DNA from: Candidatus Enterousia sp.
Lineage (GTDB): Bacteria; Pseudomonadota; Alphaproteobacteria; Rs-D84
Direction of reading: 5' to 3'
Length of the DNA: 64,000 bases
Assembly (NCBI GenBank): GCA_045546075.1
Contig: JAZQCF010000004.1
Span: 21,157 to 85,156, forward strand
Both the position numbers and the translations under genes were made by a program. Below the pieces are notes generated by a model, which was not told where the DNA came from, did not search any database, and saw only the letters and a list, made by a program, of their open reading frames with translations. Below are positions 19,085-34,489 of this stretch, one piece after another. How positions within the stretch are numbered: the stretch's first letter is position 1; each line of letters opens with the position of its first letter.

Positions 19085-19430
19085 CTGGCGGAAGCACGGG
19101 ATTTGTTCGCATATGCTCACCACACGTAAGATTCAAACTGCGTGCTGCGCACTTGTTTTCATCAACTATCGTGTGAACCCTTTTGCAACCCTGTTGCAAA
19201 GCGGGCACATTCACCCTTCGTCCACCACAAATTTACCCGCCACTTTGGGCGGGTTAATTTCTGGCGGAGTTCTAATAAATGACGGTATTGGATATCCAAT
19301 TTACAGGGATTTGCAGGGAATTTTTTGACATAAATCCCACTGTTTTCATGAGAAACGCAAGGGACACAAATCAAAAATCGCACAAAACAACAGGGAATTA
19401 TGGGTATAAAAAACCAAAATAATCAGAATA

Positions 19431-21131
19431 TTATGAACTTAATGTTCCGTTTTTAGCTTTCTCTACCAAATTTTCTACAAATACTTTTATCTTGCTTTGA
19501 TCGTGATACGTATAGTTGTCACTTATATCCCTTTTTAATTGTTCTATATCATCCTTGGACATATTTGCTGTATTTTCAGAAAAAGATTTTGTTGGGTCGC
19601 AATTTTCTTTGTGCGGCATTATATCATCTGGTTCTAAGATGTCTTCAAAAACACACCTTTGGGGTAAAATGTTCAATATATCTTTAACAGAAAACAAATT
19701 AGTGCATTCAATTCCTAATTCTTTAGCAACTTCTTGAATTTGTTTTTTTATTTTATTTCCACCAGTATCTTCATCGTGTATAACCGTTAAATTAAGGTTG
19801 TCTATCGATGAATATCTGTACATTTTTGGCATTTCAGAACCGTTACAACTTTGAATGAAAATATCCCTTATGTTCATGCTTTCTAGAACTTTATTTAATA
19901 TAATTTTATCCGTGTTACCTTCAACTAATACTATGTATTGTGGCAAAAGTTCTTTCCAATAATTTAATCCGAAACCGACTCTCATAACTTCATCACTCAA
20001 TATATACGAGTCTGATTTTGCTCGTTCAATCGTTGTTTTACCTTTCTTTTTAGAAACTACAATATGACTTTCAGGGGTTGTCTTATCTATCATAAAAGGC
20101 GAATGAGTGGCGCATATGATAACATTGTTTTTACTCATACCAATAAGACGATCCCTTAAAAATTGGATTCCACTAGGATGTAAATGAACATCCGGTTCGT
20201 CTAATAAAATAATACTGTTTTCAATATCTTTTGTGGCTTCCTCACAAGATACAGATAATATAAACGAAATAAATTGTCTAAAGCCATCGCTTCTATCTTT
20301 TGTATCAAATAATATACTCTCACGGTCTTTGTCTTCAATCAAACACGTACAAATACCAGTCTGTTCTATATCAATATTTATTTTTACATTAGCCTCGAAA
20401 GATTTCCAAACGGCTTTAAAATGTTTATTAATTGCCGACTCTAATTGTCTGCTTATAGTTTTTCGATTGCTAGCATCTTTCAAATCACCCAAGTTATAAA
20501 TATCTAACTTTGCCAACTTAAAAATATTTTCTATTGGTTTGTTTTTTAACGTTTTATTTATTATTTGATTCAAATCAATTGATGATGGCAACAAAAATTC
20601 TTCACTATAATCCCAATATATAATTTTGGGTTTATTTGGGGCTATAACTTCGTTCCACAAGAAATTATCATGTTCATCTTTTATTTGTTCTAATGTTGTA
20701 TCACCGGTATACCAAGTACTATTAAGATAATATCTATTATTTTTGATACCAGTTGACGACAACTCAAAATTATATATTATGTGCTTGATATCATCAAATT
20801 TTTTTATACTGAGCCCCTTTTGTTCGGCAAATATTTGAGATTTTTCTTGTAATAATTTATTAGTAGCTTTATCTATTTCAAAATATATTTTGACTTCTAC
20901 AATATTATCTTCTGCATTATTAACATTCGGCTTATACATGGTTTTTGTATACTTAAGTTCTGATGAGTATACATTGTTGATAGCCTGTAAAATTGAACTT
21001 TTCCCAGATTCGTTCAAGCCGATAAGAAGATTAAACGCTCGTTCTGATTTATCTTTGTTTTGATAAAATCTATCAATAGTTAAATTTTCTATACTTCTAA
21101 AATTATGAATAGTAATTTTTTCTAATTTCAT
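19431..21131 (-). CDS. OLD-family ATP-dependent endonuclease (ABC-type ATPase + C-terminal TOPRIM)
   Basis: Walker A LIGLNESGKSSIL. Walker B/H-loop LLDEPDVHLHP. TOPRIM motif YIVLVEGNTDKIIL. Start at MKLEKITIHNFRSI (ATG 21131, RBS AAGAGG). The AT-rich composition differs from the flanking chromosome. Confidence 0.75.
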   Translation of the reverse strand: MKLEKITIHNFRSIENLTIDRFYQNKDKSERAFNLLIGLNESGKSSILQAINNVYSSELKYTKTMYKPNVNNAEDNIVEVKIYFEIDKATNKLLQEKSQIFAEQKGLSIKKFDDIKHIIYNFELSSTGIKNNRYYLNSTWYTGDTTLEQIKDEHDNFLWNEVIAPNKPKIIYWDYSEEFLLPSSIDLNQIINKTLKNKPIENIFKLAKLDIYNLGDLKDASNRKTISRQLESAINKHFKAVWKSFEANVKINIDIEQTGICTCLIEDKDRESILFDTKDRSDGFRQFISFILSVSCEEATKDIENSIILLDEPDVHLHPSGIQFLRDRLIGMSKNNVIICATHSPFMIDKTTPESHIVVSKKKGKTTIERAKSDSYILSDEVMRVGFGLNYWKELLPQYIVLVEGNTDKIILNKVLESMNIRDIFIQSCNGSEMPKMYRYSSIDNLNLTVIHDEDTGGNKIKKQIQEVAKELGIECTNLFSVKDILNILPQRCVFEDILEPDDIMPHKENCDPTKSFSENTANMSKDDIEQLKRDISDNYTYHDQSKIKVFVENLVEKAKNGTLSS

Positions 21132-21317
21132 TTGTGACCTCTTATTATCATGTAACATAATATTTTTTGCCTAAAAAATCCAGTTTTTTATTGGTAAATT
21201 GAAATAGTTATATATTTTTTCACAAAATCAAAAAAATTTTTCAAGGCAGGTGGTCGCAACAATGTATATTATTAAGAATAAGGGTATTCCTTATTCGTTA
21301 AACATAAGGAGTATACT

Positions 21318-22583
21318 ATGCTTTTAACAATTGTTGATAAAAACATTAATCAAATTAAACCGTACCAAAACAACCCCAAACTTCATAGCAAACACCAGAT
21401 TAAACAGATTGCGGATTCTATTAAAGAATTTGGATTTGTGAACCCTGTGTTGTTGGATGAAAATGGGGAAATCATAGCGGGGCATGGACGATATTTGGCT
21501 GCAAAACAGTTAAATATTGGAACCATCCCTACAATAACACTATCTCATTTAAATGATGAGCAGAAACGTCTGTATCGTATTGCTGATAACAAACTGACCG
21601 AATTAGGCAAATGGGATGTGTCTTTGTTGCAAATGGAATTTAAAGAACTGGAAAATTTAAATCTGGATCTAGAAATTACAGGGTTTGAAACCGAAGAAAT
21701 AGATAATTTTATTATAAATAAGTCTGGTCCTACAAATCCGAAAGACGAATATATCCCAGAATTATCAACCAACGATTATCAATGCAAATTTGGCGATATA
21801 TGGCGACTGGGGCGACATTTCTTAATTTGTGGTGATGCATTAAAAGCGGAAACATATGCAAATTTAATGGAAAACAATCGTGCCAAAATGATTTTAACAG
21901 ATCCACCATATAATGTCCGTGTAAAAGATATTGGTTCAAGCGGTAAAATTAAGCATGATGAATTTGCGATGGCATCTGGCGAGATGTCATCTGATGAATT
22001 CATCACGTTTTTAAATACATTTATGAAACATGCAAAAGAATATTCCATCGATGGTTCTTTGCATTACTTGTTTATGGATTGGCGACATGGAATAGAAATT
22101 GGCCTGGCCGCATCAACCGTTTATGAAGAATTAAAAAACATCTGCGTTTGGGTCAAAAATAATGGTGGTATGGGCAGCCTGTATCGTTCACAGCACGAAT
22201 TGTGCTTTATATACAAAAACGGCAACGGCCCACATACGAATAATATAAATCTGGGGGCGCATGGGCGATATCGCACAAATGTTTGGGAATACGCAGGTGC
22301 CAATGGTTCCGCAGATGGTAAAGAAAATTTAAAATTACATCCAACGGTTAAGCCCGTTGCAATGTTAAAAGATGCAATTCTGGATGTCACAAAACGTGGC
22401 GATATTGTGTTGGATTGCTTCTTGGGTTCTGGTTCAACCTTAATCGCATGCGAACAAACAGGTCGCACATGTTATGGCATCGAAATAGAACCAAAATATT
22501 GTGATGTGACAATTAAACGTTATGAAGAACTAACCGGTGAAAAAGCCATAAAAATAGGAGGTGCAGATGACAGGATATGCTAA
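21318..22583 (+). CDS. ParB-like nuclease domain fused to a DNA methyltransferase (N6-adenine/N4-cytosine, DPPY)
   Basis: N-terminal ParB/Srx-like region (NPVLLDENGEIIAGHGR), then ILTDPPYNV and a C-terminal SAM-binding region. This architecture is common in phage and GTA regions next to terminase. Confidence 0.8.
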   Translation: MLLTIVDKNINQIKPYQNNPKLHSKHQIKQIADSIKEFGFVNPVLLDENGEIIAGHGRYLAAKQLNIGTIPTITLSHLNDEQKRLYRIADNKLTELGKWDVSLLQMEFKELENLNLDLEITGFETEEIDNFIINKSGPTNPKDEYIPELSTNDYQCKFGDIWRLGRHFLICGDALKAETYANLMENNRAKMILTDPPYNVRVKDIGSSGKIKHDEFAMASGEMSSDEFITFLNTFMKHAKEYSIDGSLHYLFMDWRHGIEIGLAASTVYEELKNICVWVKNNGGMGSLYRSQHELCFIYKNGNGPHTNNINLGAHGRYRTNVWEYAGANGSADGKENLKLHPTVKPVAMLKDAILDVTKRGDIVLDCFLGSGSTLIACEQTGRTCYGIEIEPKYCDVTIKRYEELTGEKAIKIGGADDRIC

Positions 22584-22941
22584 CCCACCAAAAGAAACAC
22601 AATTCAAAAAAGGACAATCTGGTAATCCCAAAGGACGTCCCAAGGACGATAAAAATTATTTGGCTCTTGCAAACAGAGAGTTATCACAAAAGGTTTCAAT
22701 TATGGAAAAAGGTCGACGTAAAACACTTAGCAAAAAGGAGGTGTTTGTCAAAACGACGATAAACAAGGGTATTGCTGGCGATAAAAAATTTACAAATATT
22801 GCATATATAATGATGCAGGATGCCGAAAGATATAATGAACGCAAAAAACACGATGAAAAAGAACAATCTAAAATAAACCAGAACATTATTGAAAATTTCC
22901 GAAAACGGGTTTTAGAAGAGAATAAAGAGGTGGAAGAATGA
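22561..22941 (+). CDS. phage-associated small basic protein (DUF5681-like, putative terminase small subunit)
   Basis: FKKGQSGNPKGRPKD motif, found in small proteins encoded immediately upstream of phage/GTA large terminases. Overlaps the neighbouring genes. Confidence 0.45.
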   Translation: MQMTGYANPPKETQFKKGQSGNPKGRPKDDKNYLALANRELSQKVSIMEKGRRKTLSKKEVFVKTTINKGIAGDKKFTNIAYIMMQDAERYNERKKHDEKEQSKINQNIIENFRKRVLEENKEVEE

Positions 22942-24383
22942 CACAAAATCTGGCTAATGCTTTAATAAAGGAAGATTTTTACAGTTTTGTGCAACGGGCT
23001 TATTTCGAAACAAGCGGTGGACAAATACTGATTCCAAATTGGCACATTGAAATATTGTGTGATCGGCTGGAAAAAGCCCGCAAAGGCGAAATAAAACGTC
23101 TTATTATAAATGTTCCGCCACGCAGTTTAAAATCACAAATTGTAAATGTTGCATTTACCGCTTGGGTATTAGGTCATAATCCAACAGAAAAAATTGTTAG
23201 TGCATCGTATTCTGCAGAATTAGCGGAAACTTTTGCACGCGATTGCAAACGTATTATGCAATCTGAGTGGTATAAACAACTATTTCCAAAAAGTGAGATT
23301 TCAAATGACCAATCGTCAGCCTATGATTTTAAAACAATTTCACGCGGTGGACGCTTTGCCGCATCCGTTGAAGGATCTTTAACGGGTCGCGGCGGCAATA
23401 TAATAATCATCGACGACCCGATAAAAACAACAGATATGGCAAATGAGAATGCCCTAAATAAAGTACAAGAATGGTATACAGGTACACTGTTAAGCCGTTT
23501 AGATAATCAAGAAGACGGGGTGATTATTTTGATAATGCAACGTGTTCATGAAAACGATTTAACAGGTTATCTGTTAGATAAAGAGTCTGATAAATGGGAG
23601 CATATAGTTATGCCTATGATTGCAACCGAAGAAGAACAATGGGAAGTTAAGAATAAAACTTTTATAAGGCATAAAGGCGATGTATTAAACAAGCAATATA
23701 TCAGTTTTGAAAAATGTAACGAATTAAAAACAGAATTAGGGGAATATGTATGGAATGCTCAGTATCAACAGGAGCCATGCCCAATCAGTGGTGGTATAGT
23801 CAAAGAAGAATGGATGCAATATTATCCAAACCAACGTTTGAATCCTGATGAAGTTTATAAAATATTATTAAGTTGGGATACAGCTAATAAAACAGGAGAA
23901 AACAATGCGTATTCTGCTTGTTCTGTCGTAGCAGTAATGAGAAACAGGACATTTTATTTGTTACAAGTTGCGCGTGCCCGACTGGATATGACAAAACTTT
24001 TAGAATCTGTTTTGCAAGCATACAATTCTGTGGTTCAAGAGTCTGGCTTTTTCAGAATCAAACCAGTATTACTAATAGAAGATGCTGCGAGCGGAACTCC
24101 GCTTATAAATTTGTTAAGAAATTTAAAAGATATATATGGCCGCGTATTAAATATCGAGGCAATAAAGCCTAAAGGGGATAAAATTGACCGACTTTATGGT
24201 ATAACACCATATATTGAAAATGGACAATTGTTGTTTCCGCCAGATGGTGTGGAAGGGAAAGAACGATGGTGGCCAGATTTTAAAAAAGAATTGTTAAGCT
24301 TTCCAAATTCAAAATATAAAGATCAAGTTGATTCTTTGACACAGGCTATTTCATATGGTCAAGAATTATTGGCATACCAATAA
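22938..24383 (+). CDS. phage terminase large subunit
   Basis: INVPPRSLKSQIVNVAFTAWVLGHNP (Walker A-like of Terminase_6 type), IIIIDDPIK (Walker B), and a C-terminal RNase-H-like nuclease region. Confidence 0.8.
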   Translation: MTQNLANALIKEDFYSFVQRAYFETSGGQILIPNWHIEILCDRLEKARKGEIKRLIINVPPRSLKSQIVNVAFTAWVLGHNPTEKIVSASYSAELAETFARDCKRIMQSEWYKQLFPKSEISNDQSSAYDFKTISRGGRFAASVEGSLTGRGGNIIIIDDPIKTTDMANENALNKVQEWYTGTLLSRLDNQEDGVIILIMQRVHENDLTGYLLDKESDKWEHIVMPMIATEEEQWEVKNKTFIRHKGDVLNKQYISFEKCNELKTELGEYVWNAQYQQEPCPISGGIVKEEWMQYYPNQRLNPDEVYKILLSWDTANKTGENNAYSACSVVAVMRNRTFYLLQVARARLDMTKLLESVLQAYNSVVQESGFFRIKPVLLIEDAASGTPLINLLRNLKDIYGRVLNIEAIKPKGDKIDRLYGITPYIENGQLLFPPDGVEGKERWWPDFKKELLSFPNSKYKDQVDSLTQAISYGQELLAYQ

Positions 24384-24410
24384 AATAAATACTGGGTAAA
24401 ATCTCGGTAT

Positions 24411-25049
24411 TTATTTTGGCATATGTTTATGTATACATGCGTTATGCAAATCACTAATCAAATTCTTGCCAGTATAAGATTTGGCGAACCGTTTAAATTT
24501 GTCTATTTGTTTAATAAAATCATCACATGATATAAAATATGAATAATCATGTTTAGAAAAAGCATCAAATACAATCATATTTATTTCTTTGTTGTGCTTT
24601 TTTATCCACTTATATACTGTTTCAAAATCTACATATAAAAACATATGATTTGTGGCCGCGCCGTGTATTTCGCGTATTGATAGAAAACCACTAAAAATCC
24701 TGGTTTTATCTGCTAGTTTTATTTGTGGAACAATATTTACATTTTTCATGTATAAAAAACTGTCATTTTTACAATCTGGCAATTTCATAATACTCGTATC
24801 GTTTTTACCAGGCGGACAAATATAAATAGGTATCAGTATTTTTGATCGCAACAACGTCGCTATGAAATATGCCAAACTTTCATTATCTTTGAACACGTTA
24901 TATTCTGCTAATGCACTGGCCAATGTCCCATTAAAATAATCGGTATCATTCTCTTGGTGAATAATACAGTAATCAAATTCATATTCGAAATCTTTAAAAT
25001 GGTTCTCGTCCAATACATATTCTGTTAAAGTTTTTCGTATGTTTGTCAT
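24411..25049 (-). CDS. hypothetical protein (island operon gene 4)
   Basis: AT-rich ORF, last gene of the minus-strand run 26703 to 24411. Confidence 0.45.
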   Translation of the reverse strand: MTNIRKTLTEYVLDENHFKDFEYEFDYCIIHQENDTDYFNGTLASALAEYNVFKDNESLAYFIATLLRSKILIPIYICPPGKNDTSIMKLPDCKNDSFLYMKNVNIVPQIKLADKTRIFSGFLSIREIHGAATNHMFLYVDFETVYKWIKKHNKEINMIVFDAFSKHDYSYFISCDDFIKQIDKFKRFAKSYTGKNLISDLHNACIHKHMPK

Positions 25050-25050
25050 A

Positions 25051-25548
25051 TTATTTTTCCAAATCTATGCCGCATTCTGTATAGCACTTTTTCCAATCAA
25101 ATCGTGCTGATTTATATTTTTTGTTTAATTTTGCATTTTCTTCTTTGGTAATCCATGCGGTTTTCAAATTATTCAAAACATATTTAACACTTTTATCATC
25201 ATCCATAAAAGCATGAAATAATTCAGATAACGGCACACAGTGTTCCAATATTAAATCTTTCAATTTCGGGAAATCTTTTTGAATTGTGCGTTTTTTGCCG
25301 ACCAACAAATTATGTAAATCCCCATTTATACCAGATTTGCACCAAATATTTTGCGCCGATACCGATATAAAATCTGCCGGTCTCGATTCAGAAATCACAT
25401 ACAATATATTGCGAAATGATAATTTTATAATTTTCTTTGCGTTATCACTTGCTTTACGATATGTGTCACGCAGATTATTCAATAATAAATCTGTATCTTT
25501 ATCAGTAAATTTATTCGTCGGTTTGCTTATTGTTATTTGTGGTTTCAT
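25051..25548 (-). CDS. hypothetical protein (island operon gene 3)
   Basis: ORF. 1-nt gap to the downstream gene and 38-nt overlap with the upstream gene, suggesting translational coupling. Confidence 0.45.
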   Translation of the reverse strand: MKPQITISKPTNKFTDKDTDLLLNNLRDTYRKASDNAKKIIKLSFRNILYVISESRPADFISVSAQNIWCKSGINGDLHNLLVGKKRTIQKDFPKLKDLILEHCVPLSELFHAFMDDDKSVKYVLNNLKTAWITKEENAKLNKKYKSARFDWKKCYTECGIDLEK

Positions 25549-26023
25549 TGTTCTCTGCCGCTTGTTTTTCTTTCCATTTTTTATATTCTGGATTTGGAAT
25601 CTGGGATTCTATCATCTTTAACTTTCGAATAGTTTTCTTTGTGCCTATCGTATTGTAATAAGTATAAGTTCCGTCTAATACCATACAATATGCCCCAAAT
25701 GTAACCGTATATCCATCATACAATTTTTTTGATTCTGTTTTCCAGTCTTTTTCGCCTATAACCTGTCGCATATCGGTTGCAAAAACTTCGCCACCAAACA
25801 TCTGTTGCCGTCGTGCCTTGCATGAACGTGCCACATCTGTGTCGCCATCTGCCGGATGACAATAATATAATTGAATCAAAGAATACTTGTCATTCACTTG
25901 AAATACTTTTAATTCATGACTTGGAAAGCAATCTGGATTGCGTATGGTTTTTGGAGGAACCGGTTGTGTTGTCAAACCAACACAAGAACACAATAACAAA
26001 CCTAATAAAATTACTTTCTTCAT
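25511..26023 (-). CDS. lipoprotein, hypothetical (island operon gene 2)
   Basis: MKKVILLGLLLCSCVG lipobox. Confidence 0.5.
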   Translation of the reverse strand: MKKVILLGLLLCSCVGLTTQPVPPKTIRNPDCFPSHELKVFQVNDKYSLIQLYYCHPADGDTDVARSCKARRQQMFGGEVFATDMRQVIGEKDWKTESKKLYDGYTVTFGAYCMVLDGTYTYYNTIGTKKTIRKLKMIESQIPNPEYKKWKEKQAAENNETTNNNKQTDE

Positions 26024-26025
26024 AT

Positions 26026-26703
26026 TTAATCCTTTTTGTTTTTGGGTGGAATTTCTATAAACAATGATTTGAACTGTCCGTATTTATCACCAGTATCGCA
26101 AAAATCTTGCCATTGAAAATTATAGGCATTTTGCATAAACAAATCTGGTTTATCTTTAAGATGTTTGGAATTGGTGTCATTTTTTACATTCCACTTATGC
26201 CATCCAGACATTTTTTCGCCTTCGGTTGTCCTGAATGCATATGCCATAGAATTTGGGTTGCTTTTTGCACACCAAAACGATTTGTTGTTCGAAATAAAAA
26301 TGCATACGCCTGATTTTGCGTATCCTTTATCAATTAACCATTCAATGCGGTTTATATCTGCCCATACATGATAACAATTATCATCATTTCCCTTATGATC
26401 CGCCAACAGGTCTGATACAGGTATTTTTGTATTTTCGTAAAGTTTTTCTGATTTTATTGGTCTGGTTTTATATTTCAATTCTATGGGGTAAAAATCTCCG
26501 TCTTTGATGACCATTATATCTATGTGAATAATGCGTTGTTCGCCTGGCTTTTTAATTGGAAATTCCAAAATTATTTGAGCCGTATCATTGAATATCTTGT
26601 GTAATTCTATTGCTAATGAATGTTGAAAATCTGCTTCCGAGACAAAGAACCTTTGTCTACTTATGCTAGAAAACGCTTCTTTAATTCCGCTGATTACATT
26701 CAT
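26026..26703 (-). CDS. PD-(D/E)xK nuclease-fold protein (island operon gene 1)
   Basis: RIIHIDIMVIKDGDFYPIELKYK gives a D ... E-x-K motif with the surrounding beta-strand pattern. Confidence 0.45.
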   Translation of the reverse strand: MNVISGIKEAFSSISRQRFFVSEADFQHSLAIELHKIFNDTAQIILEFPIKKPGEQRIIHIDIMVIKDGDFYPIELKYKTRPIKSEKLYENTKIPVSDLLADHKGNDDNCYHVWADINRIEWLIDKGYAKSGVCIFISNNKSFWCAKSNPNSMAYAFRTTEGEKMSGWHKWNVKNDTNSKHLKDKPDLFMQNAYNFQWQDFCDTGDKYGQFKSLFIEIPPKNKKD

Positions 26704-26994
26704 CTTTATCCCCGCGTAAAATGCTGACCGCCAATTAAGAATTGGCGGCCGGGGAGTTCCTAATCAGTTTATCATTGATTCCGTGGCTTTCGGGTTGCCC
26801 CTATTGTATGGCACACGACTCCCCGACCATAACGTCAGGGACATTACGGTGCAAAAAGCACCGAAACATCAGTAATAACGATGCTTTCGCACCGGATAAA
26901 CGGGCTAGGAAAGCCCCGAACCCAACTCTCATTGGATTCATCAAAAACATACCTTAAAACAATATAAAAATCAAGTTATTATAAAAGAATAAAA
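26704..26994 (-). other. GC-rich, highly structured non-coding element between two minus-strand genes; candidate ncRNA or leader
   Basis: Contrasts with the AT-rich island. Hairpins seen: CCGCCAATT-AAG-AATTGGCGG, GTGC-AAAAA-GCAC, and CATC-AGTAATAAC-GATG nested in CGAAA/CTTTCG. A long-range pair CGGGGAGT / ACTCCCCG is present. Confidence 0.35.
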
Positions 26995-28437
26995 CTAACA
27001 TTTTGTATATTTCACATGTTTATAAGAAGAACGCCTTTGAATAAAATTATGTATATATTTATCAATTTTTTCCTCTGGTATAAGATATATCTCCATCATT
27101 AGCTCCTTTATAAAAGCACCAGCTAATATACCATAGACGTTTTGTAATATTAATTCATTATTTGCTAGTGCATAGTATTTGCCATTGTTTTTGTTATATG
27201 CTTTCGGATGTACTATTGCATTACGTATTTGACACAAAGCATTACCCAGATTTTTATCTTGTTTTTGCAAATACTTCAACATGCGTTTTATTTTTGTTTT
27301 CCACTGGGTTGATAAACTTTCTAAAACGAAACTATTAACATCTCCGTTTTTAGATTTTCCGCGTAAATTTTGTAATGTTTCAACATAAGAAATCAACATC
27401 ACATAATCTTTTTGATTAATTAGTGATTGACCACCATGCAAAATATCTTCTGCCCCTGTAATCAAATTATGCCAACCAGGTTTATCGTAAAGACGCAACC
27501 ATTTGTTGATAGATATTGTTAATAAATTATCATCTTTATTTATCAAAAAATCTTTTATGGTTATTGGCATCAAATCGTGTGCTAATTTTCCATGTTTATG
27601 CCCAAGAGAAGGGAGCAAATCTCTACAAAGCATAGGGTGTGCTTCATGATATATTTTATTATTTTTGTTATGTTTTACAACACTAATCCAGCTAAAATTT
27701 ATGTTTATTTTACAATCTAATAAAATTTCTAAAAATAAGCGCAATTTGTGTTCGAGCATTCTATAAATAGAGAATTTATTATAACCAGATTTTATATGAA
27801 TAGCGATATTCGTATGAAGACGTTTTAATAAGTTATATTTGTTTTTATCTAAGAGTGGTTGTATATGCTTTTTAAATGAATTCATAATAGTCTTAGATTT
27901 TGCTGAAAAAGAACAAATTACATCATCAAAATCATCAGCAGAGTGAATAGTGTGAGCGGTTGCGTTCACTATTTCAAGCGAGATTTTTGTTTTACCTATT
28001 ACAACCGGCATTTGTGCAAATTTCACCATAGAACTAATGTTTTTATTTGTAGATAAAAATTGATAGAAATTATCGTCATAATCTACATATAAACCACTTA
28101 TCACAAAATTTTTCAGCAACCCTCCGAAAACAACTGCTCGTGCTGAGCCAGTAACAAATTCTGAGAAAACAATATTCATCGTTATGCCTGAGCATTGTAA
28201 AAATACTTCTAACAATGTAATAGGTATAGTTTGTTCATCATAACGAATGATGCCATGCATTACGAGTATAGATTTATTAGTCGGGTGTTTTGAATTAGTA
28301 TTAAATATTGAAATTTTAATACCATTCTCTGGAGAATAACTCAATTTACCAGAAAATTCCTTGTCCGGTTTATTCGGCATCCAAAAAGTGCCTATCCATT
28401 CATAATTTTTACGATGATCTAAATCCAAAGTCGCCAT
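26995..28437 (-). CDS. hypothetical 480-aa protein with a C-terminal HEPN-like Rx4H motif (possible abortive-infection-type RNase)
   Basis: NALCQIRNAIVHPK fits HEPN R-x4-H. Lies between a restriction endonuclease and a nuclease operon in an acquired island. Domain assignment was not verified. Confidence 0.45.
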   Translation of the reverse strand: MATLDLDHRKNYEWIGTFWMPNKPDKEFSGKLSYSPENGIKISIFNTNSKHPTNKSILVMHGIIRYDEQTIPITLLEVFLQCSGITMNIVFSEFVTGSARAVVFGGLLKNFVISGLYVDYDDNFYQFLSTNKNISSMVKFAQMPVVIGKTKISLEIVNATAHTIHSADDFDDVICSFSAKSKTIMNSFKKHIQPLLDKNKYNLLKRLHTNIAIHIKSGYNKFSIYRMLEHKLRLFLEILLDCKININFSWISVVKHNKNNKIYHEAHPMLCRDLLPSLGHKHGKLAHDLMPITIKDFLINKDDNLLTISINKWLRLYDKPGWHNLITGAEDILHGGQSLINQKDYVMLISYVETLQNLRGKSKNGDVNSFVLESLSTQWKTKIKRMLKYLQKQDKNLGNALCQIRNAIVHPKAYNKNNGKYYALANNELILQNVYGILAGAFIKELMMEIYLIPEEKIDKYIHNFIQRRSSYKHVKYTKC

Positions 28438-28449
28438 ATTTTTTAATAA

Positions 28450-28992
28450 CTATTTATCAGTTGGAACCGGTAACCCAAATTTCTGTAACGGTATATATTC
28501 AAAATAATAAGAACAGCCGACCGAAACTATATAATCTAAGACATCTTGATAGCATGGTTGTTTGAACCAGTCACTTAGCAAATAAATATATTCTACTTCC
28601 ATATTCAGTTGAGCCAGTAATTTCTTATATTGTTTTTTCTTAAAATCACAAGTTTGCAATTTTTCGTCTACTGACCCAGCAACACGTTGAAATTTGCATT
28701 CAATTACAAAAAATGTGTTGTTTATAACAACATAAATAGAATCATCTGGTAATAATTTCTTAGATAATATCGATTTCCAATCAATCCCACGGTATTCTAA
28801 AAATTTATATAAAGCAGATTTTTTGAATATAGAGGCAACTTCTTCGCCTTTATATAAAACAGAAACCCACCCGCGTCTATCATCTTTGCAATCATATCCT
28901 GGTTGAGAACACAAAAAAGTGCGTAAATCGGTCTTCCCTTCAAAAACTAAACCGGTTTTAGTATTTGCACCACCAATTCCATTCGCTTTCAT
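28450..28992 (-). CDS. putative type II restriction endonuclease (PD-(D/E)xK)
   Basis: LLPDDSIYVVINNTFFVIECKFQ gives PD ... E-C-K. Immediately downstream of two DNA methyltransferases on the same strand with overlapping stop/start. Confidence 0.5.
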   Translation of the reverse strand: MKANGIGGANTKTGLVFEGKTDLRTFLCSQPGYDCKDDRRGWVSVLYKGEEVASIFKKSALYKFLEYRGIDWKSILSKKLLPDDSIYVVINNTFFVIECKFQRVAGSVDEKLQTCDFKKKQYKKLLAQLNMEVEYIYLLSDWFKQPCYQDVLDYIVSVGCSYYFEYIPLQKFGLPVPTDK

Positions 28993-29774
28993 TTTTTATC
29001 CTTTTTTTCAGATATATCATATAATCTTTTTTCAGCCAATTCAACAAATTGTGGCTCTTGGTCTATACCCACAAACAGACGGCCATGTTTTAATGCTGCA
29101 ACACCTGTCGTTCCGCTACCCATAAATGGATCTAAAATCAAATCGCCAGCATTTGTAGATGCCAAAATAATGCGTTCCAATAATTCCACCGGTTTTTGAG
29201 TTGGGTGTTTGCCAAATTTCTTTTCTTCCTTGGTCGGGGTTCCGATAGCCCAAACGCTTCGCATCTGGCAACCTGGCTTTTTGATAAAGTCCTTTGGGAA
29301 ATCACCGTTCTTCATAGCCTCATAATTAAATGTATGTTTCGCCTTTTTATTTTTGCGCGCCCAGAGCAGTGTTTCATGACTTGCTGTAAAGTACCGACAG
29401 GACATATTCGGACTAGCATTTGGCTTAAACCAAGTTATGTCGTTCAAAATATGGAAACCAAGCAATTGCATAGCAAAACCGCATGAATATATGCTATGGT
29501 ATGTACCACTAACCCACAAAGTGCCATTGGGTTTCAACACACGATGACAAGCACAGAGCCATTTTTTATGAAATTCAAAATCATCACTAAGACCATGAGA
29601 TTTGTCCCAATCGCCTTTGTTCACAGACACAACGCAACCATTTTGACATGTGATACCACCATTAGAAAGCATGTACGGCGGGTCTGCAAATATCATATCA
29701 AATGTATTTTCCGGAAGTTCAAGCAACTTTTCAAGGCAATCTGCACAATAAAGACGGTACTGTTTCTTAGTCAT
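28989..29774 (-). CDS. beta-class N6-adenine DNA methyltransferase (DpnA/MboIB-like)
   Basis: N-terminal FADPPY (motif IV), then a C-terminal HPTQKP...DPFMGSGTT (motif I). This is beta-class order. Confidence 0.8.
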   Translation of the reverse strand: MTKKQYRLYCADCLEKLLELPENTFDMIFADPPYMLSNGGITCQNGCVVSVNKGDWDKSHGLSDDFEFHKKWLCACHRVLKPNGTLWVSGTYHSIYSCGFAMQLLGFHILNDITWFKPNASPNMSCRYFTASHETLLWARKNKKAKHTFNYEAMKNGDFPKDFIKKPGCQMRSVWAIGTPTKEEKKFGKHPTQKPVELLERIILASTNAGDLILDPFMGSGTTGVAALKHGRLFVGIDQEPQFVELAEKRLYDISEKKDKK

Positions 29775-30699
29775 AATTTGTAATCAATAATTCACGAATT
29801 GCATCACGACCATCGGCCTTAGAATTTATAAGACGTTTAGCCAAAATACGGTTAATTTTATAATCTTTGTACAAATCATCAAAGAACGAGTCATCAATAT
29901 AATTGGTTGGATCCGAATTACTCAACATTTGTAAAGTGCCCATCTGATGACATGTGTCAAAGACCTGTTTAAGACGTTCTTGTTCTGCATCATCAAAATC
30001 ACCAACTGCATAAGAATTAAAAGATGACGTTTCACGAATTGGACGATATGGGGGGTCATAATAAATGAATGTGTCGGCCTTTACATAATCTGGTGTAGCA
30101 CCAAAGTCTGCTTGTATAATCGTAGCAATTTGCAAAGCTTCAGACACGTTGCGTAAGTTTTCTTCATCCAAGATACGCGGGTTGGTATATTTGCCCATTG
30201 GAACATTGAATTTGTTTTTGCTGTTTACACGGAACAAACCGTTAAAGCATGTCCGGTTCAAGAATATCGTTAGGGCAGCACGGCGAACAAAACTTGTGCG
30301 GTATACATTGGCATCAACATTTTTATCACAGTCGTTATATTCATCGCGTCTAGCATAATAATATGCTTTTGTGTCATCTGTATGTCTGTATTCGGTTTGA
30401 ATTTTGGTCAGTTCAACAATCAAACTTTCCACATCGCGTTTTATAACGTTGTAAAGAATCACCAATTCTGGGTTGATATCGAATAAAAATGCTTCCTGGA
30501 TTTGATATCTATTGTATATATCAAAAAAGACGGCACCACCACCAACGAAAGGTTCTATATAACGTTTGATGCCGCCCATCTTTAGTTTTAGTGGAAGTTT
30601 TTGTTCAATTTGTTCCAGCAACTGTCCCTTGCCACCGGCCCACTTCAATATCGGGTGGCATTCTGTATAATCTGGCAATCTGGCTGGTATTGCTATCAA
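29767..30699 (-). CDS. Dam-family (alpha-class) N6-adenine DNA methyltransferase
   Basis: KWAGGKGQLL, EPFVGGGAVFFD (FxGxG) and YYDPPYRP, in the order typical of Dam/DpnM. Confidence 0.8.
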   Translation of the reverse strand: MIAIPARLPDYTECHPILKWAGGKGQLLEQIEQKLPLKLKMGGIKRYIEPFVGGGAVFFDIYNRYQIQEAFLFDINPELVILYNVIKRDVESLIVELTKIQTEYRHTDDTKAYYYARRDEYNDCDKNVDANVYRTSFVRRAALTIFLNRTCFNGLFRVNSKNKFNVPMGKYTNPRILDEENLRNVSEALQIATIIQADFGATPDYVKADTFIYYDPPYRPIRETSSFNSYAVGDFDDAEQERLKQVFDTCHQMGTLQMLSNSDPTNYIDDSFFDDLYKDYKINRILAKRLINSKADGRDAIRELLITNYD

Positions 30700-30757
30700 A
30701 ACTCATCCTTTCCTTGCTACTATATTAGAAGAAAATAGCAGATAAAATCAAGGTGTT

Positions 30758-30985
30758 TTATAATATTTTACGTGGTGCGTTTTTCCACAATGCTGCCATT
30801 TGAAATAGTTTGCGCTGGATGCGTCGAAGTAGCCATGCTTGGCGACAAGTTAAATTGCCATCATTGGTTCTGCGGATTGCGGCTTCTAATTCCTTTAATG
30901 ACCGACATGCCGCGAAATAGAGCATAATAAAATCTGTTTTGTTACTGGGGTTGATATCATCAAAATGCTTATACTTCATAGACAA
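30758..30985 (-). CDS. small hypothetical protein
   Basis: 75-aa ORF at the head of the minus-strand methylase/restriction gene train. Could be a regulator. Confidence 0.3.
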   Translation of the reverse strand: MSMKYKHFDDINPSNKTDFIMLYFAACRSLKELEAAIRRTNDGNLTCRQAWLLRRIQRKLFQMAALWKNAPRKIL

Positions 30986-31110
30986 TCCTTTTTAAGGTTG
31001 TCGTATTGATGATTATATTCCCGCGAAAGTCCAGTCATTTTATTATCTTTATTAACTTGACTTCTGGCTGCTTTAGAGCGGTAATTGCGTGACGTTATAA
31101 AGGAGCCGAT

Positions 31111-31551
31111 ATGTCATATAAAGACAACCTGCCTAAGACGATGGATGAGTTAAAAGCACTATCTTTTGATGAACGAGCGCGATTATGGGCAAAATACTCA
31201 CAATATCCATTCAAACGGCAAATGCGGTCGCTTTGGTATTACATTCAATGTGACAGGTTAAATCTTCGAATTGAACATAAATATTTGGTAAAAATTCAAA
31301 AATATAAGGATAATCCAGAACAGTGTTTAGACCATGCGTGCCCAAACAAATACAACTTTGTCCCAGGTACAATTTTAACAAGATATTTCAAAGGGATAAA
31401 ATACACCATCTTAGTCAACGACGACGGTAGTTTTTCTTATAATGGCGATAAATATTCAACTTTATCGGCGATAGCAACCAAGATAGCAGGTATGAAAATG
31501 TCTGGTAATTTCTTCTTTGGAATAAACAAAAGGTATAAACATGACAATTAG
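31111..31551 (+). CDS. DUF2924-family protein (serine-recombinase accessory protein)
   Basis: GTILTRYFKGIKYTILVNDDGSFSYNGDKYSTLSAIATKIAGMKMSGNFFFGI matches the conserved DUF2924 C-terminal block. Sits immediately 5' of the recombinase as in known pairs. Confidence 0.6.
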   Translation: MSYKDNLPKTMDELKALSFDERARLWAKYSQYPFKRQMRSLWYYIQCDRLNLRIEHKYLVKIQKYKDNPEQCLDHACPNKYNFVPGTILTRYFKGIKYTILVNDDGSFSYNGDKYSTLSAIATKIAGMKMSGNFFFGINKRYKHDN

Positions 31552-33162: not shown

Positions 33163-33367
33163 ACACATTGATTTTTTATCTGTTTTATGTTATATTGTGT
33201 ATATGCCTGTTGGAAGGCTAGCCCGTTCGTGTAAAGATTTCATCATCCAACAAATAAAATAATATAAACCTCCGAGCTTATTATCTAAGCCAAGAGACTA
33301 CGAACGCAAAATCAATATTAGATAATGAACTTGGGCAACTCCGCAAATGCGGTAAAGGATTTATATT

Positions 33368-34048
33368 ATGAAAAATATAGACTACTTTAAATTACAAGCA
33401 AAAAATCTGCTTAAAGACTACCAAACACGCTATCTTTCTGAAGATGGTAATATTTATGAATACGAACCAAAGTTTTTTGATATCGTAGGTATATTCCTTG
33501 AATATGAAATAATGGACGATGATAAAAACTTTGAATTTAAATTAGGCAATGCCCAGCATTTAATCGCGCAAATGGCAGGGTTTGCCAGCTGGAAAGATTT
33601 AACAACAGCACCAGAAACAGATCAATTAAAAGCCCGTAAATCACTAGAAAGAAGTATTCATAATGAATATGGATATACAAGTTTTATATCGCATAATTTT
33701 ACACCTGATGGTCGTGAAATAACAGAATATTCACACGAACCATTGGATAGTGATGTGCCTTATCATGAAGAACTGTCTGGACAGGATTGGCAAGATGGTA
33801 TAGATGAATGCCGGCAAAACGGTATGGGGTTTGAACCAGACGAAATCGTTGAATGCTTACATTGTGGAAATCGGTTTCCATTTAAGGAAGTAAAGGTTAG
33901 ACGATTGAAGTCCGAGTACAACAATGGCAAAGAAGATGATTTTAAAGAAATTGTATGCAAACACTATCCAGAATGTAATGGTAATTTACTAGATTTAATA
34001 CCGGTGGAAATGCTTGATGCGAAAGGAGGTGATGAAAATGAGGAATAA
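33368..34048 (+). CDS. acidic hypothetical protein with C-terminal Cys4 (CxxC...CxxxxC) zinc-ribbon-like motif
   Basis: ECLHCGNRF...CKHYPECNG. Overlaps the HNH gene start. Confidence 0.4.
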   Translation: MKNIDYFKLQAKNLLKDYQTRYLSEDGNIYEYEPKFFDIVGIFLEYEIMDDDKNFEFKLGNAQHLIAQMAGFASWKDLTTAPETDQLKARKSLERSIHNEYGYTSFISHNFTPDGREITEYSHEPLDSDVPYHEELSGQDWQDGIDECRQNGMGFEPDEIVECLHCGNRFPFKEVKVRRLKSEYNNGKEDDFKEIVCKHYPECNGNLLDLIPVEMLDAKGGDENEE

Positions 34049-34331: not shown

Positions 34332-34440
34332 AAGTGCCTCAACGAAAATAGCCAAAGTATATCAATGCTTGCTATTTGGGCTAGTTTGATAAATTTGGCG
34401 ATATACATTGGAAATATCGTGGGTAAAAATCGCCAGAAAT

Positions 34441-34489
34441 GGGGCGAAAAAAACATCCCGTGGGATTACCACGGGATGTTCAATATTAC
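34441..34489 (-). terminator. terminator hairpin downstream of tRNA-Ser
   Basis: Minus strand AACATCCCGTGG-TAAT-CCCACGGGATGTT followed by TTTTTT. Confidence 0.45.

What the first reader, a model, noticed from the sequence alone, without database searches (positions are those of the whole stretch)
19431..21131. Stand-alone OLD-family ATPase/TOPRIM nuclease at the island edge; candidate anti-phage defence gene
A complete ABC-type ATPase head (Walker A, Q-loop, LLDEPDVHLHP) is fused to a TOPRIM domain (VLVEGNTDKII). It has no adjacent UvrD-like helicase, so it is not Gabija-type. The architecture is that of class 1 OLD nucleases, or of fused PARIS-like AriA/AriB. It sits back-to-back with a ParB-methyltransferase and terminase genes. 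This mirrors the position of the old gene at the end of P2-like prophages.
Basis: partly seen in the sequence, partly recalled or inferred. Interest (0 to 1): 0.55.

Follow-up and report, generated by a model that had tools for sequence, protein, structure and literature searches.

The report
Single-gene OLD-family defence nuclease
This is an intact gene for an OLD-family ATPase-nuclease, a known kind of anti-phage defence protein; it sits as the last gene at one end of a 15-kb mobile element inserted at a tRNA-Ser gene, and its only unusual trait is that its relatives often lie inside restriction-modification operons.

Summary
Window 19431-21131 (- strand) encodes a 566-aa protein with a complete ABC-type ATPase head and a complete TOPRIM nuclease domain. 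All catalytic residues are invariant across 33-53 relatives, and the gene is under purifying selection (dN/dS 0.11-0.15).

Pfam, PADLOC (best model "Old") and fold search (best full-length match: Thermus OLD, 6p74) all place it in the OLD family. It has no GajB-like helicase, retron or AriB partner, so by gene context it is a Class 1 (single-gene) OLD. It is not PARIS-like: its C-terminal domain matches OLD C-terminal regions, not AriB.

New context found here:
- The gene is the terminal cargo gene, 162 bp inside attL, of a 15.2-kb integrative element (19261-34496) at the 3' end of tRNA-Ser. The element carries terminase genes, an ApeA-like gene, a two-methylase restriction-modification (R-M) cassette and a frameshifted serine recombinase. 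A metagenomic contig shows the joined element ends.
- In its clade, 12 of 33 loci have an R-M or methyltransferase gene within 1 kb, often co-operonic. This hints at a guardian role for R-M systems but does not prove one.

Verdict: a new, uncharacterised member of a known kind. The substrate (DNA or tRNA) and the trigger are unknown.

The parts
19431..21131 (-). OLD-family ATPase-TOPRIM nuclease gene (566 aa; an upstream in-frame ATG at 21158 would give 575 aa)
   Evidence: ORF. RBS and homologue starts. Pfam AAA_15 + OLD-like_TOPRIM. PADLOC Old. Fold match to 6p74. dN/dS 0.11-0.15.
21138..21143 (-). Shine-Dalgarno AAGAGG, 6 nt upstream of the Met10 start codon
20022..21131 (-). ABC-type ATPase region (aa 1-370) with an insert of about 190 aa between Walker A and the signature motif
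   Evidence: Pfam AAA_15 covers aa 10-357 of the 575-aa form. AlphaFold secondary structure.
20997..21020 (-). Walker A, GLNESGKS (aa 38-45)
   Evidence: G38, G43 and K44 are invariant in 87 sequences.
20274..20294 (-). ABC-signature-like motif RSDGFRQ (aa 280-286)
   Evidence: R, S and G are invariant
20169..20213 (-). Walker B and D-loop, IILLDEPDVHLHPSG (aa 307-321)
   Evidence: D311 and E312 are invariant. This stretch aligns to P2 Old.
20097..20114 (-). H-loop region, CATHSP (aa 340-345; H343 invariant)
19434..19979 (-). C-terminal nuclease region (aa 385-566): TOPRIM core plus C-terminal helices
   Evidence: Pfam PF20469. Domain model pLDDT 93. Foldseek top hits are OLD C-terminal regions 6njx, 6nk8 and 6p74.
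19905..19934 (-). TOPRIM glutamate motif IVLVEGNTDK (E404, G405 and D408 invariant)
   Evidence: Equivalent to Ts OLD E377/D381 by spacing (PMC7049728).
19758..19778 (-). TOPRIM DxD motif HDEDTGG (D453, D455 and G458 invariant)
   Evidence: Aligns to the P2 Old D-C-D motif.
19635..19649 (-). Third acidic cluster FEDIL (E496 and D497 invariant); candidate metal-B ligands
   Evidence: The assignment rests on spacing relative to Ts OLD S478/E480 and is an inference.
19533..19535 (-). K533, an invariant lysine on a C-terminal helix; candidate counterpart of the catalytic K562 of the Class 2 Burkholderia OLD
   Evidence: Invariant in 53 sequences. The helix is at aa 142-154 of the domain model. The K562 role is from PMC6755086. 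The equivalence was not checked by superposition.
21132..21317 (.). 186-bp AT-rich divergent intergenic region between the OLD gene and the ParB-methyltransferase gene; presumed promoters
   Evidence: only weak consensus matches. Nearly identical in L001 and L237.
21318..22583 (+). ParB_N + N6_N4 DNA methyltransferase, transcribed divergently from the OLD gene
22561..24383 (+). DUF5681 protein (in the small-terminase position) and large terminase subunit
   Evidence: Pfam DUF5681. phrog_38 terminase large subunit, E 7e-102.
19261..19268 (+). attL core CTGGCGGA; left end of the element, 162 bp from the OLD stop codon
   Evidence: Homology to L001 and L237 starts at 19257. Junction sequences. 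Coordinates.
34489..34496 (+). attR core CTGGCGGA, overlapping the 3' end of tRNA-Ser(UGA) at 34490-34583 (-)
19261..34496 (.). 15.2-kb low-GC integrative element that carries the OLD gene
   Evidence: GC 0.30-0.37 against 0.42-0.47 in the flanks. Contig L001 joins window 19257 to 34496, which is an attP-type junction.

Best explanation
The gene encodes a functional OLD-family (overcoming lysogenization defect) protein. It has an N-terminal ABC-type ATPase that probably dimerises and a C-terminal two-metal TOPRIM nuclease.

It is a self-contained, single-gene anti-phage module (Class 1 by gene context), carried as accessory cargo at the attL end of a 15-kb tRNA-Ser-integrated mobile element.

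Inferred mechanism, by analogy with the characterised single-gene OLDs (P2 Old, Vibrio cholerae OLD, Thermus OLD):
1. The protein is held inactive in uninfected cells.
2. A phage-derived cue, coupled to ATP binding or hydrolysis by the ATPase head, licenses the TOPRIM site.
3. The TOPRIM site (E404, D408, D453, D455, E496/D497, helped by K533) cuts double-stranded nucleic acid: either phage DNA by nicking, or the anticodon stem of host tRNAs.
4. This stops phage replication, with or without death of the infected cell.

Shown here: the architecture, catalytic residues, family placement, purifying selection, gene context and mobile-element location. Inferred: defence function, substrate and trigger.
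For: - Architecture and motifs.
- Family placement: PADLOC's best model is Old (E 8.8e-31). hhalign of the family profile against P2 Old gives probability 97.7%, aligning Walker B, the H-loop, the TOPRIM Glu and DxD. BLASTP against P2 Old gives 24% identity and E 1e-12.
- Structure: the full-length AlphaFold model (pLDDT 88.4) has Thermus OLD 6p74 as its top PDB match (E 1.9e-18), followed by PtuA, the retron-Eco8 OLD and GajA. The C-terminal domain model (pLDDT 93) matches OLD C-terminal regions.
- Purifying selection: dN/dS 0.11-0.15. The 90%-identity cluster has 24 members.
- No partner gene: there is no helicase, reverse transcriptase or AriB next to it, and Rfam finds only the tRNA in 17-36 kb.
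- Defence-type surroundings in the window: an ApeA-like gene and an R-M cassette.
- Defence-type surroundings in relatives: Abi_C, TIR, PLD, SIR2, Schlafen, and Type I, IIG and III R-M.
- Published function of single-gene OLDs: PMC12445682, PMC12392090, PMC7049728 and PMC13261556.
Against: - No experiment exists for this protein or for any relative above about 25% identity.
- The characterised single-gene OLDs differ from one another in substrate (tRNA for P2 Old, DNA nicking for Vc OLD) and in trigger (RecBCD inhibition or not). For E. coli YbjD the TOPRIM domain is even dispensable (PMC13261556). The analogy therefore cannot fix the mechanism.
- The recurrent placement of relatives inside R-M operons suggests that 'stand-alone' may be an oversimplification for this clade.
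- An archaeal OLD ATPase (Cran1) has a non-defence role (PMC12796447).
Confidence: 0.72

Rival explanations
1. R-M guardian (works like PrrC or PARIS). The protein monitors a DNA methyltransferase or restriction complex. When a phage anti-restriction protein disables that complex, the TOPRIM nuclease is released to cut tRNA or DNA and abort the infection. In the window, the monitored partner would be the divergently transcribed ParB-methyltransferase or the element's R-M cassette.
For: In the clade (profile score of at least 300 bits), 12 of 33 non-redundant loci have an R-M or methyltransferase gene within 1 kb. The figures are 1 of 19 for more distant full-length OLD-like genes and 18 of 137 for other ABC-ATPase hits (Fisher p 0.002-0.004).

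The placements look co-operonic:
- hsdM-OLD-hsdS-...-hsdR in L004 and L005.
- hsdS-OLD-hsdR in L011, and hsdR overlapping OLD in L013.
- OLD 22-44 nt downstream of Type IIG enzymes.
- A Type III Mod gene overlapping OLD by 4 nt in L108.

Precedents are PrrC, embedded in EcoprrI, and PARIS, triggered by Ocr (PMC12707154). P2 Old and AriB are tRNases (PMC12445682). Weak similarity to MAD3 and MAD4 of the methylation-associated MADS system was also seen.
Against: - In the window the gene is not inside an R-M operon. It is divergent from an orphan-type phage ParB-methyltransferase.
- Twenty-one of the 33 clade loci have no R-M gene within 1 kb, and some lie among housekeeping genes.
- R-M genes are the commonest neighbours in any defence island.
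- The R-M HMMs were built from this clade's own neighbours, which biases the comparison.
- There is no evidence of physical interaction.
Confidence: 0.17
2. Restriction-like pair. The OLD nuclease is itself the ATP-dependent nuclease partner of the adjacent ParB-N6_N4 methyltransferase, and methylation protects self DNA from TOPRIM nicking. This would be an unconventional two-gene R-M system.
For: - N6_N4 methyltransferases are the most frequent neighbour family: 11 of 39 clade loci, and directly adjacent in L108, L109, L116, L119, the window and L001.
- The OLD + methyltransferase + terminase block is conserved in three independent contigs.
- MADS shows that OLD-like ATPase modules can belong to methylation-based systems (10.1101/2023.03.30.534895).
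Against: - The partner methyltransferases are of unrelated types (Type I, IIG, III and orphan), and several come with their own nuclease. OLD is therefore not their obligatory restriction subunit.
- ParB-methyltransferase plus terminase is, from general knowledge, a common phage packaging-region module, which explains its presence without reference to OLD.
- Many clade members have no methyltransferase nearby.
Confidence: 0.05
3. Fused PARIS-type AriA-AriB (Class 4 OLD), sensing Ocr-like proteins and cleaving tRNA-Lys.
For: PADLOC AriA (E 2e-22) and AriAB (E 1.9e-20) models match. AriA chains appear among the weak PDB sequence hits.
Against: - Those matches cover the ATPase part (AriAB stretch aa 311-428).
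- There is no Pfam DUF4435 hit.
- The C-terminal 190 aa alone hit only Old and mad4 in PADLOC.
- In the fold search of the C-terminal domain, AriB (8ux9_A) ranks 27th (E 0.089, probability 0.38, TM 0.31). OLD C-terminal regions score TM 0.53-0.55.
Confidence: 0.03
4. A housekeeping or element-maintenance ATPase (RecF/SbcC/Rad50-like DNA repair, Cran1-like cell-cycle function, or a replication/packaging helper of the element) rather than a defence gene.
For: - Weak hits to SMC_N, Rad50 and RecF models.
- Cran1 shows that OLD ATPases can have non-defence roles (PMC12796447).
- The gene is adjacent to packaging genes.
Against: - Those hits are far below their cut-offs and are confined to the generic P-loop regions.
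- The gene sits in a low-GC accessory element that is absent from or rearranged in related strains.
- No close relative (30-36% identity at best) was found among the species-representative genomes.
- Its neighbours are overwhelmingly defence or mobile-element genes.
Confidence: 0.03

Closest known systems
Thermus scotoductus OLD (Class 1; PDB 6P74; PMC7049728)
   Same: - Best full-length structural match (Foldseek E 1.9e-18).
- Single polypeptide with an ABC ATPase, an inserted region and a TOPRIM domain.
- Same spacing of acidic residues (E..D, DxD, and a later acidic pair).
- Single-gene context.
   Different: - Only 14% identity in the structural alignment, with low TM (0.36-0.39) because domain orientations differ.
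- This protein keeps canonical Walker B (DE), an H-loop His and an S-x-G signature motif, whereas Ts OLD has E276 in place of the Walker B Asp and a degenerate signature.
- Its C-terminal region aligns better with Class 2 C-terminal regions and carries an invariant Lys instead of Ts R487.
Phage P2 Old (Class 1 archetype; PMC12445682, PMC10568477)
   Same: - Detectable sequence homology from Walker B to the TOPRIM DxD (24% identity, E 1e-12; hhalign probability 97.7%).
- Similar size (586 aa).
- An accessory gene of a mobile element, lying next to the packaging region.
- Single-gene defence.
   Different: - Very distant in sequence.
- P2 Old is triggered by RecBCD inhibition and cuts tRNA anticodon stems. 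Neither trigger nor substrate can be transferred to this protein at this distance.
- The carrier here is a small serine-recombinase element, not a P2-like phage.
Vibrio cholerae Vc OLD and E. coli YbjD/OldB (chromosomal Class 1; PMC12392090, PMC13261556)
   Same: Bacterially encoded single-gene ATPase-TOPRIM proteins with anti-phage phenotypes. Vc OLD needs both the ATPase and the nuclease residues.
   Different: - No direct sequence comparison was made here.
- Vc OLD is a RecBCD-independent DNA nickase.
- YbjD does not need its TOPRIM domain. This shows that the mechanism varies within Class 1.
Class 2 OLD / GajA of Gabija (PDB 6NK8, 6NJX, 8SM3, 8X5I; PMC6755086)
   Same: - The C-terminal domain's best fold matches are the Class 2 C-terminal regions (TM 0.53-0.55).
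- There is an invariant Lys on a C-terminal helix, as with K562.
- PADLOC GajA models match at E 6.6e-21.
   Different: - There is no GajB (UvrD-like helicase) gene anywhere in the element.
- The region after the TOPRIM core is shorter (about 60-70 aa, against a helical domain of about 90 aa).
PrrC in the EcoprrI Type I R-M operon, and PARIS (R-M guardians; PMC12707154)
   Same: These are ATPase-coupled nucleases kept latent until anti-restriction is sensed. Close relatives of the window protein (68% and 58% identity) sit between hsdM, hsdS and hsdR exactly as prrC does.
   Different: - PrrC has a different nuclease domain.
- The PARIS nuclease is AriB (DUF4435).
- The window copy is not inside an R-M operon.
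- No functional link has been demonstrated.

Membership tests
OLD family nucleases (ABC ATPase + TOPRIM) | N-terminal ABC-type ATPase with Walker A Lys, Walker B acidic residue and H-loop | tested here: met
   Pfam AAA_15 (E 2e-19) and AAA_21. K44, D311/E312 and H343 are invariant in 87 sequences.
OLD family nucleases (ABC ATPase + TOPRIM) | C-terminal TOPRIM domain with the conserved Glu and DxD metal ligands plus a second acidic cluster | tested here: met
   PF20469 scores 27.4 bits, above the 23.2-bit cut-off. E404, D408, D453, D455, E496 and D497 are invariant in 53 sequences. The fold matches OLD C-terminal regions.
OLD family nucleases (ABC ATPase + TOPRIM) | Helical dimerisation domain inserted in the ATPase; homodimer | tested here: inconclusive
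   The monomer model shows an insert of about 190 aa with three long helices (aa 88-104, 145-166, 220-241) interleaved with strands. No multimer prediction or superposition was possible.
OLD family nucleases (ABC ATPase + TOPRIM) | Metal-dependent nuclease and ATPase activities | not testable with these tools
   Needs purified protein.
Class 1 OLD (single-gene) | No UvrD/PcrA/Rep-like helicase, retron RT/ncRNA or separate AriB gene adjacent | tested here: met
   The neighbours are attL and host DNA on one side and the ParB-methyltransferase on the other. Rfam finds only a tRNA. No conserved partner gene was found across 39 loci apart from methyltransferases and recombinases.
Class 1 OLD (single-gene) | Isolated gene, not proximal to other defence genes (as described in PMC10568477) | tested here: not met
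   The gene lies in an element with an ApeA-like gene and an R-M cassette. Relatives are embedded in Type I, IIG and III R-M operons or lie next to Abi_C, TIR, SIR2 or PLD genes.
Class 1 OLD (single-gene) | Lacks the Class 2 C-terminal helical domain; shorter than Class 2 | tested here: inconclusive
   The length of 566 aa is intermediate. The C-terminal domain model aligns over about 210 columns with Class 2 C-terminal regions (TM 0.53-0.55), better than with Ts OLD (TM 0.41). Only about 70 residues and 3 helices follow the TOPRIM core.
Class 2 OLD / Gabija GajA | gajB helicase gene immediately downstream | tested here: not met
   Downstream of the gene lies 162 bp and then attL. No helicase domain was found in any scanned gene of the element.
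Class 3 OLD / retron Eco8-type effector | Adjacent reverse transcriptase and msr/msd ncRNA | tested here: not met
   No RT domain in the neighbours. No Rfam hit other than the tRNA. The NCBIfam retron_eff_Eco8 score is 42 bits against a cut-off of 250.
Class 4 OLD / PARIS (AriA + AriB or fused AriAB) | AriB-type (DUF4435) TOPRIM nuclease, separate or fused | tested here: not met
   No DUF4435 hit. The C-terminus alone does not hit AriB or AriAB models. AriB chain 8ux9_A ranks 27th with probability 0.38.
R-M guardian nucleases (PrrC-like placement) | Gene embedded in an R-M operon and latent until the R-M enzyme is inhibited | tested here: not met
   The window copy is not embedded in an R-M operon. 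Relatives P0004, P0005, L011, L013, P0016, P0033 and L108 are. Latency and activation are not testable here.

The most novel reading that the evidence does not exclude
This clade of OLD nucleases could be a distinct, R-M-associated class. About a third of its members are co-operonic with Type I, IIG or III restriction-modification genes or with stand-alone methyltransferases.

Under this reading the ATPase head monitors the methyltransferase or restriction complex. When a phage anti-restriction protein disables that complex, the TOPRIM nuclease is unleashed, probably on tRNA as with P2 Old and AriB. That would make it a PrrC-like guardian built on the OLD scaffold. The window copy, paired divergently with a ParB-methyltransferase on a mobile element, would be a portable version of this guardian.
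Probability: 0.15. Interest if true: 0.7.

Novelty: new member of a known kind. Interest (0 to 1): 0.38.

Why it matters
- Single-gene OLD nucleases are among the least understood defence proteins. Only P2 Old, Vc OLD, Ts OLD and YbjD have been studied, and they disagree on substrate and trigger.
- This gene adds a well-defined, intact and clearly mobile representative from an uncultured alphaproteobacterium. About 384 clusters at 50% identity match it at E <= 1e-30, and none of these relatives has been characterised.
- Its practical value is as a test case. The clade's frequent insertion into R-M operons gives a concrete, testable hypothesis for what activates a Class 1-type OLD.
- The element's mapped att sites and variable cargo slots show how such genes travel.
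- If the gene is simply another stand-alone OLD, it is a routine annotation.

Tried and rejected
- **Source genome.** Exact look-ups of the 566-aa and 575-aa products and of the neighbouring 253-aa protein found nothing. The closest named relative is MBQ2844793.1 from an Alphaproteobacteria MAG. No species-representative genome holds a relative above 36% identity. I could not recover an empty attB site from a strain lacking the element.
- **Long att repeats.** A search with 11-nt seeds found only chance pairs. The 8-bp core emerged only from comparison with contigs L001 and L237.
- **PDB by sequence.** Only marginal hits (E >= 3e-5) restricted to the Walker B/D-loop. Fold search was needed.
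- **Phage and plasmid collections.** Only P2 Old and one Vibrio phage gene at 24-25% identity, and plasmid genes at 26% or less.
- **Promoter and terminator scan.** Nothing convincing around the gene. The near-perfect conservation of the intergenic region in L237 merely reflects a locally 99%-identical segment.
- **PARIS-like fusion, Gabija, retron effector and housekeeping ATPase** were considered and rejected (see the membership tests).
- **MADS link.** It rests on a solid MAD3 (ATPase) match but only a marginal MAD4 match (E 0.0076), so it is kept only as a precedent.
Full report
**1. The observation**

The window has one long ORF at 19431-21158 on the minus strand (575 aa). The finding's upper coordinate, 21131, is the internal Met10 (MKLEKITIHNF...).
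- Met10 has an AAGAGG ribosome-binding site at 21138-21143, 6 nt upstream.
- Almost all homologues start there.
- Several gene callers chose it for near-identical proteins.

The stated coordinates are therefore the most likely gene, giving 566 aa. All residue numbers below use the 566-aa form.

The quoted motifs are present:

| Motif | Sequence | Residues |
|---|---|---|
| Walker A | GLNESGKS | 38-45 |
| Walker B/D-loop | IILLDEPDVHLHPSG | 307-321 |
| TOPRIM Glu motif | IVLVEGNTDK | 400-409 |
| ABC-signature-like | RSDGF | 280-284 |
| H-loop | ATHS | 341-344 |
| TOPRIM DxD | HDEDTGG | 452-458 |
| Second acidic pair | E496-D497 | 496-497 |
| Invariant lysine | K533 | 533 |

Profile matches:
- Pfam gives AAA_15 (E 2e-19), AAA_21, and OLD-like_TOPRIM PF20469 at 27.4 bits, above its 23.2-bit gathering threshold.
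- PADLOC's best model is 'Old' (E 8.8e-31), ahead of the PtuA, AriA, GajA and AriAB models.
- NCBIfam gives only sub-threshold hits.

The 'Q-loop' could not be confirmed from sequence.

**2. Is it a working gene?**

- In an alignment of 33 relatives, the Walker A G/K, the signature R-S-x-G, Walker B D-E, the H-loop His, the TOPRIM E-G-x-x-D, D-x-D-x-x-G and the E-D pair are all invariant.
- The ATPase motifs remain invariant in 87 sequences.
- The nuclease residues plus K533 remain invariant in 53 sequences.
- Against the closest DNA-level relatives, dN/dS is 0.15 (L001) and 0.11 (L237). Against 77% and 68% relatives it is about 0.055, with dS saturated.
- The 90%-identity cluster has 24 members on dozens of metagenomic contigs. 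One is named: MBQ2844793.1, 'AAA family ATPase', from an Alphaproteobacteria MAG.

The gene is intact and constrained.

**3. Family placement**

- Sequence similarity to solved structures is marginal.
- The family profile aligns to phage P2 Old with 97.7% probability, from Walker B through the TOPRIM DxD. Pairwise BLASTP gives 24% identity and E 1e-12.
- A full-length AlphaFold model (pLDDT 88.4) has Thermus scotoductus OLD (Class 1, 6p74) as its best PDB match (E 1.9e-18). PtuA chains, the retron-Eco8 OLD and GajA follow.
- A separate model of residues 385-566 (pLDDT 93) matches the C-terminal regions of the Class 2 OLDs from Xanthomonas and Burkholderia best (6njx, 6nk8; TM 0.53-0.55), then 6p74.
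- In that same search the PARIS nuclease AriB (8ux9_A) ranks 27th (E 0.089, probability 0.38).
- The C-terminal 190 residues alone hit only 'Old' and, marginally, 'mad4' in PADLOC. There is no DUF4435 hit.

The protein is an OLD-family nuclease and is not a fused AriA-AriB.

By gene context it is Class 1: no helicase, reverse transcriptase/ncRNA or AriB gene is adjacent.

Two features depart from the Thermus Class 1 structure:
- The ATPase motifs are canonical, whereas Ts OLD has a Glu in place of the Walker B Asp and a degenerate signature (PMC7049728).
- The post-TOPRIM helices carry an invariant lysine, reminiscent of the catalytic K562 of the Class 2 helical domain (PMC6755086). I could not superpose coordinates, so that equivalence is an inference.

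**4. How common is it?**

- An exhaustive phmmer scan of 1.84 billion cluster representatives gives 384 clusters at E <= 1e-30 and 1147 at E <= 1e-10. The query's own 50% cluster is a single entry.
- Close relatives (58-96% identity) exist only in metagenomes and MAGs. The next tier is about 30-37% identical, 600-640 aa long, and mostly from Bacteroidales and other uncultured lineages.
- Among sequenced phages only P2 Old and one Vibrio phage gene are detectable (24-25% identity). Plasmids hold nothing above 26%.

**5. Where it sits: a mobile element**

The gene lies at the left edge of a low-GC block (0.30-0.37, against 0.42-0.47 in the flanks). Comparison with three related contigs defines the element.
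- **Contig L001** runs through the terminase, ParB-methyltransferase and OLD genes to window position 19257. It then continues directly into window 34496->34425, and further on into the serine recombinase gene (window 33024->31408). That is the order expected if window 19261-34496 were circularised.
- **The junction** reads ...GGGATGTTCAATATTA-CTGGCGGAG-TTGTAATATTT... The same 8-bp core CTGGCGGA is found at 19261-19268 (attL) and at 34489-34496 (attR).
- **attR** overlaps the 3' end of tRNA-Ser(UGA) at 34490-34583.

The OLD gene is therefore the terminal gene of a 15.2-kb integrative element, and its stop codon is 162 bp from attL.

Element content:
- OLD.
- ParB_N-N6_N4 methyltransferase.
- DUF5681 protein in the small-terminase position.
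- Large terminase (phrog_38, E 7e-102).
- Four small genes of unknown function.
- An ApeA-like gene.
- A PD-(D/E)xK nuclease with two methyltransferases.
- A serine recombinase and a few small genes.

No capsid, portal or tail genes were recognised. The element is thus not a P2-like prophage. It looks like a satellite-like or degenerate phage-derived island.

Variation between copies:
- In the window the recombinase is frameshifted at residue 355, against an intact 529-aa protein in L001.
- Contig L237 carries the same eight-gene block from OLD to the 225-aa gene (window 19257-26986, 87% identity). It is bounded by the same CTGGCGGAG but lies in a different chromosomal neighbourhood.
- L237 lacks the ApeA-like/R-M segment, so window 26987-30745 is an insertion in a cargo slot.
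- L001 has an Abi_C gene in the slot next to the other end of the element.

The P2 analogy holds only in that old also lies beside the packaging end of its genome.

**6. Context in relatives**

I examined the neighbourhoods of the close family and of about 30 more distant members.

No single partner gene is conserved, which supports a self-sufficient module. DNA-methyltransferase and R-M genes are nevertheless strikingly frequent, and they are often co-operonic:
- hsdM-OLD-hsdS-...-hsdR in the 68% and 58% relatives.
- hsdS-OLD-hsdR in L011, and hsdR overlapping OLD in L013.
- OLD 22-44 nt downstream of Type IIG enzymes in two Bacteroidales lineages.
- A Type III Mod gene overlapping OLD by 4 nt in L108.
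- Stand-alone N6_N4 methyltransferases adjacent in L109, L116 and L119.

| Group | R-M or methyltransferase gene within 1 kb |
|---|---|
| Clade loci (profile score >= 300 bits, full length, non-redundant) | 12 of 33 |
| More distant full-length OLD-like genes | 1 of 19 |
| Other ABC-ATPase hits | 18 of 137 |

Within 6 kb the clade figure is 17 of 33. Fisher p is 0.002-0.004.

Caveats: the R-M HMMs were built from this clade's own neighbours, other R-M types were not searched, and R-M genes are common in every defence island.

Other neighbours are Abi_C, TIR, PLD, SIR2, Schlafen/AlbA, AAA+S8 peptidase and serine recombinases. This is typical defence-island and mobile-element company.

**7. How it most likely works**

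Best-supported explanation:
- It is an autonomous ATPase-gated TOPRIM nuclease that provides anti-phage defence to the element's host.
- Two-metal catalysis is expected from E404/D453/D455 and D408/E496/D497, assisted by K533.
- ATP binding or hydrolysis by the probably dimeric ABC head is expected to control access to the nuclease site.

This follows from the conserved machinery (shown) and from experiments on P2 Old, Ts OLD and Vc OLD (PMC7049728, PMC12392090, PMC12445682).

The substrate cannot be decided. P2 Old and AriB cut tRNA stems, while Vc OLD, Ts OLD and GajA cut DNA. For YbjD the TOPRIM domain is even dispensable (PMC13261556). The trigger is unknown.

The main rival, or refinement, is that this clade acts as an R-M guardian in the manner of PrrC and PARIS (PMC12707154). 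The operon-embedded relatives make this plausible, but the window copy is not embedded in an R-M operon.

Lesser rivals are an unconventional methyltransferase-OLD restriction pair, a PARIS fusion, and a housekeeping or Cran1-like role. The reasons against each are given in the rival explanations.

**8. Novelty and verdict**

The finding is real and correctly interpreted. It is a new, uncharacterised and rather divergent member of a known kind, not a new kind of system.

The added value of this second look is:
- The exact gene start.
- Exclusion of the PARIS-like alternative.
- Base-level definition of the carrier element and its cargo slots.
- The statistical link between this clade and R-M operons. 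This contradicts the textbook description of Class 1 OLDs as isolated genes (PMC10568477) and offers a testable trigger hypothesis.

Interest is moderate to low (0.38). If the guardian reading proved true, it would deserve about 0.7.

Noticed in passing
window 19261-34496; L001:4851-4923: The low-GC island is a discrete 15.2-kb integrative element with an 8-bp att core (CTGGCGGA) at both ends, inserted at the 3' end of tRNA-Ser(UGA). Metagenomic contig L001 carries the joined ends, an attP-type junction, which implies a circular or excised form.
   Followed up: yes
window 31541-33162: The element's large serine recombinase is split by a frameshift at residue 355 (357-aa + 175-aa ORFs), against an intact 529-aa protein in L001. 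The window copy of the element may be immobilised, or this may be an assembly error.
   Followed up: yes
window 26987-30745: This 3.8-kb segment is absent from the otherwise collinear contig L237. It holds an ApeA_NTD1-domain protein (26995-28437) and a three-gene Type II R-M cassette: a PD-(D/E)xK nuclease (28450-28992), an N6_N4 methyltransferase (28989-29774) and a Dam-like methyltransferase (29767-30699). The two-methylase layout recalls DpnII. It looks like a variable defence-cargo slot inside the element.
   Followed up: partly
window 19085-19260: A second copy of the core CTGGCGGA lies at 19085-19092. It is followed by AGCACGGGATTTG, which resembles the 3' acceptor/T-arm of a tRNA. The 168 bp between it and attL may be the scar of an earlier, tandemly integrated element.
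   Followed up: no
window 24411-26703: Four small minus-strand genes (212, 165, 170 and 225 aa) have no Pfam, PHROG or PADLOC match, yet are conserved in order with the OLD-methyltransferase-terminase block in L237. The 170-aa product starts with a lipoprotein-like signal (MKKVILLGLLLCSC). The 225-aa product contains a D...ELK pattern suggestive of a PD-(D/E)xK nuclease.
   Followed up: no
L237:10001-11701 against the rest of L237:4162-11875: The OLD gene and its upstream intergenic region are about 99% identical between the window and L237, while the shared 7.7-kb block averages 87%. This suggests recent recombinational exchange of the OLD end of the element.
   Followed up: partly
L014:8001-10879; L003:2725-7698: Two relatives may belong to multi-gene systems. 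In L014 a SIR2_2-domain gene overlaps the OLD stop codon by 4 nt. In L003 the OLD gene follows an AAA ATPase and a Peptidase_S8 gene with an 18-nt gap.
   Followed up: no
window 33368-34331: Next to attR lie a 226-aa protein of unknown function and a 105-aa protein with an HNH-like motif (VVHHINRNKQDNRPSNL). L001 has an Abi_C gene in the same position, so this may be a second variable cargo slot.
   Followed up: no
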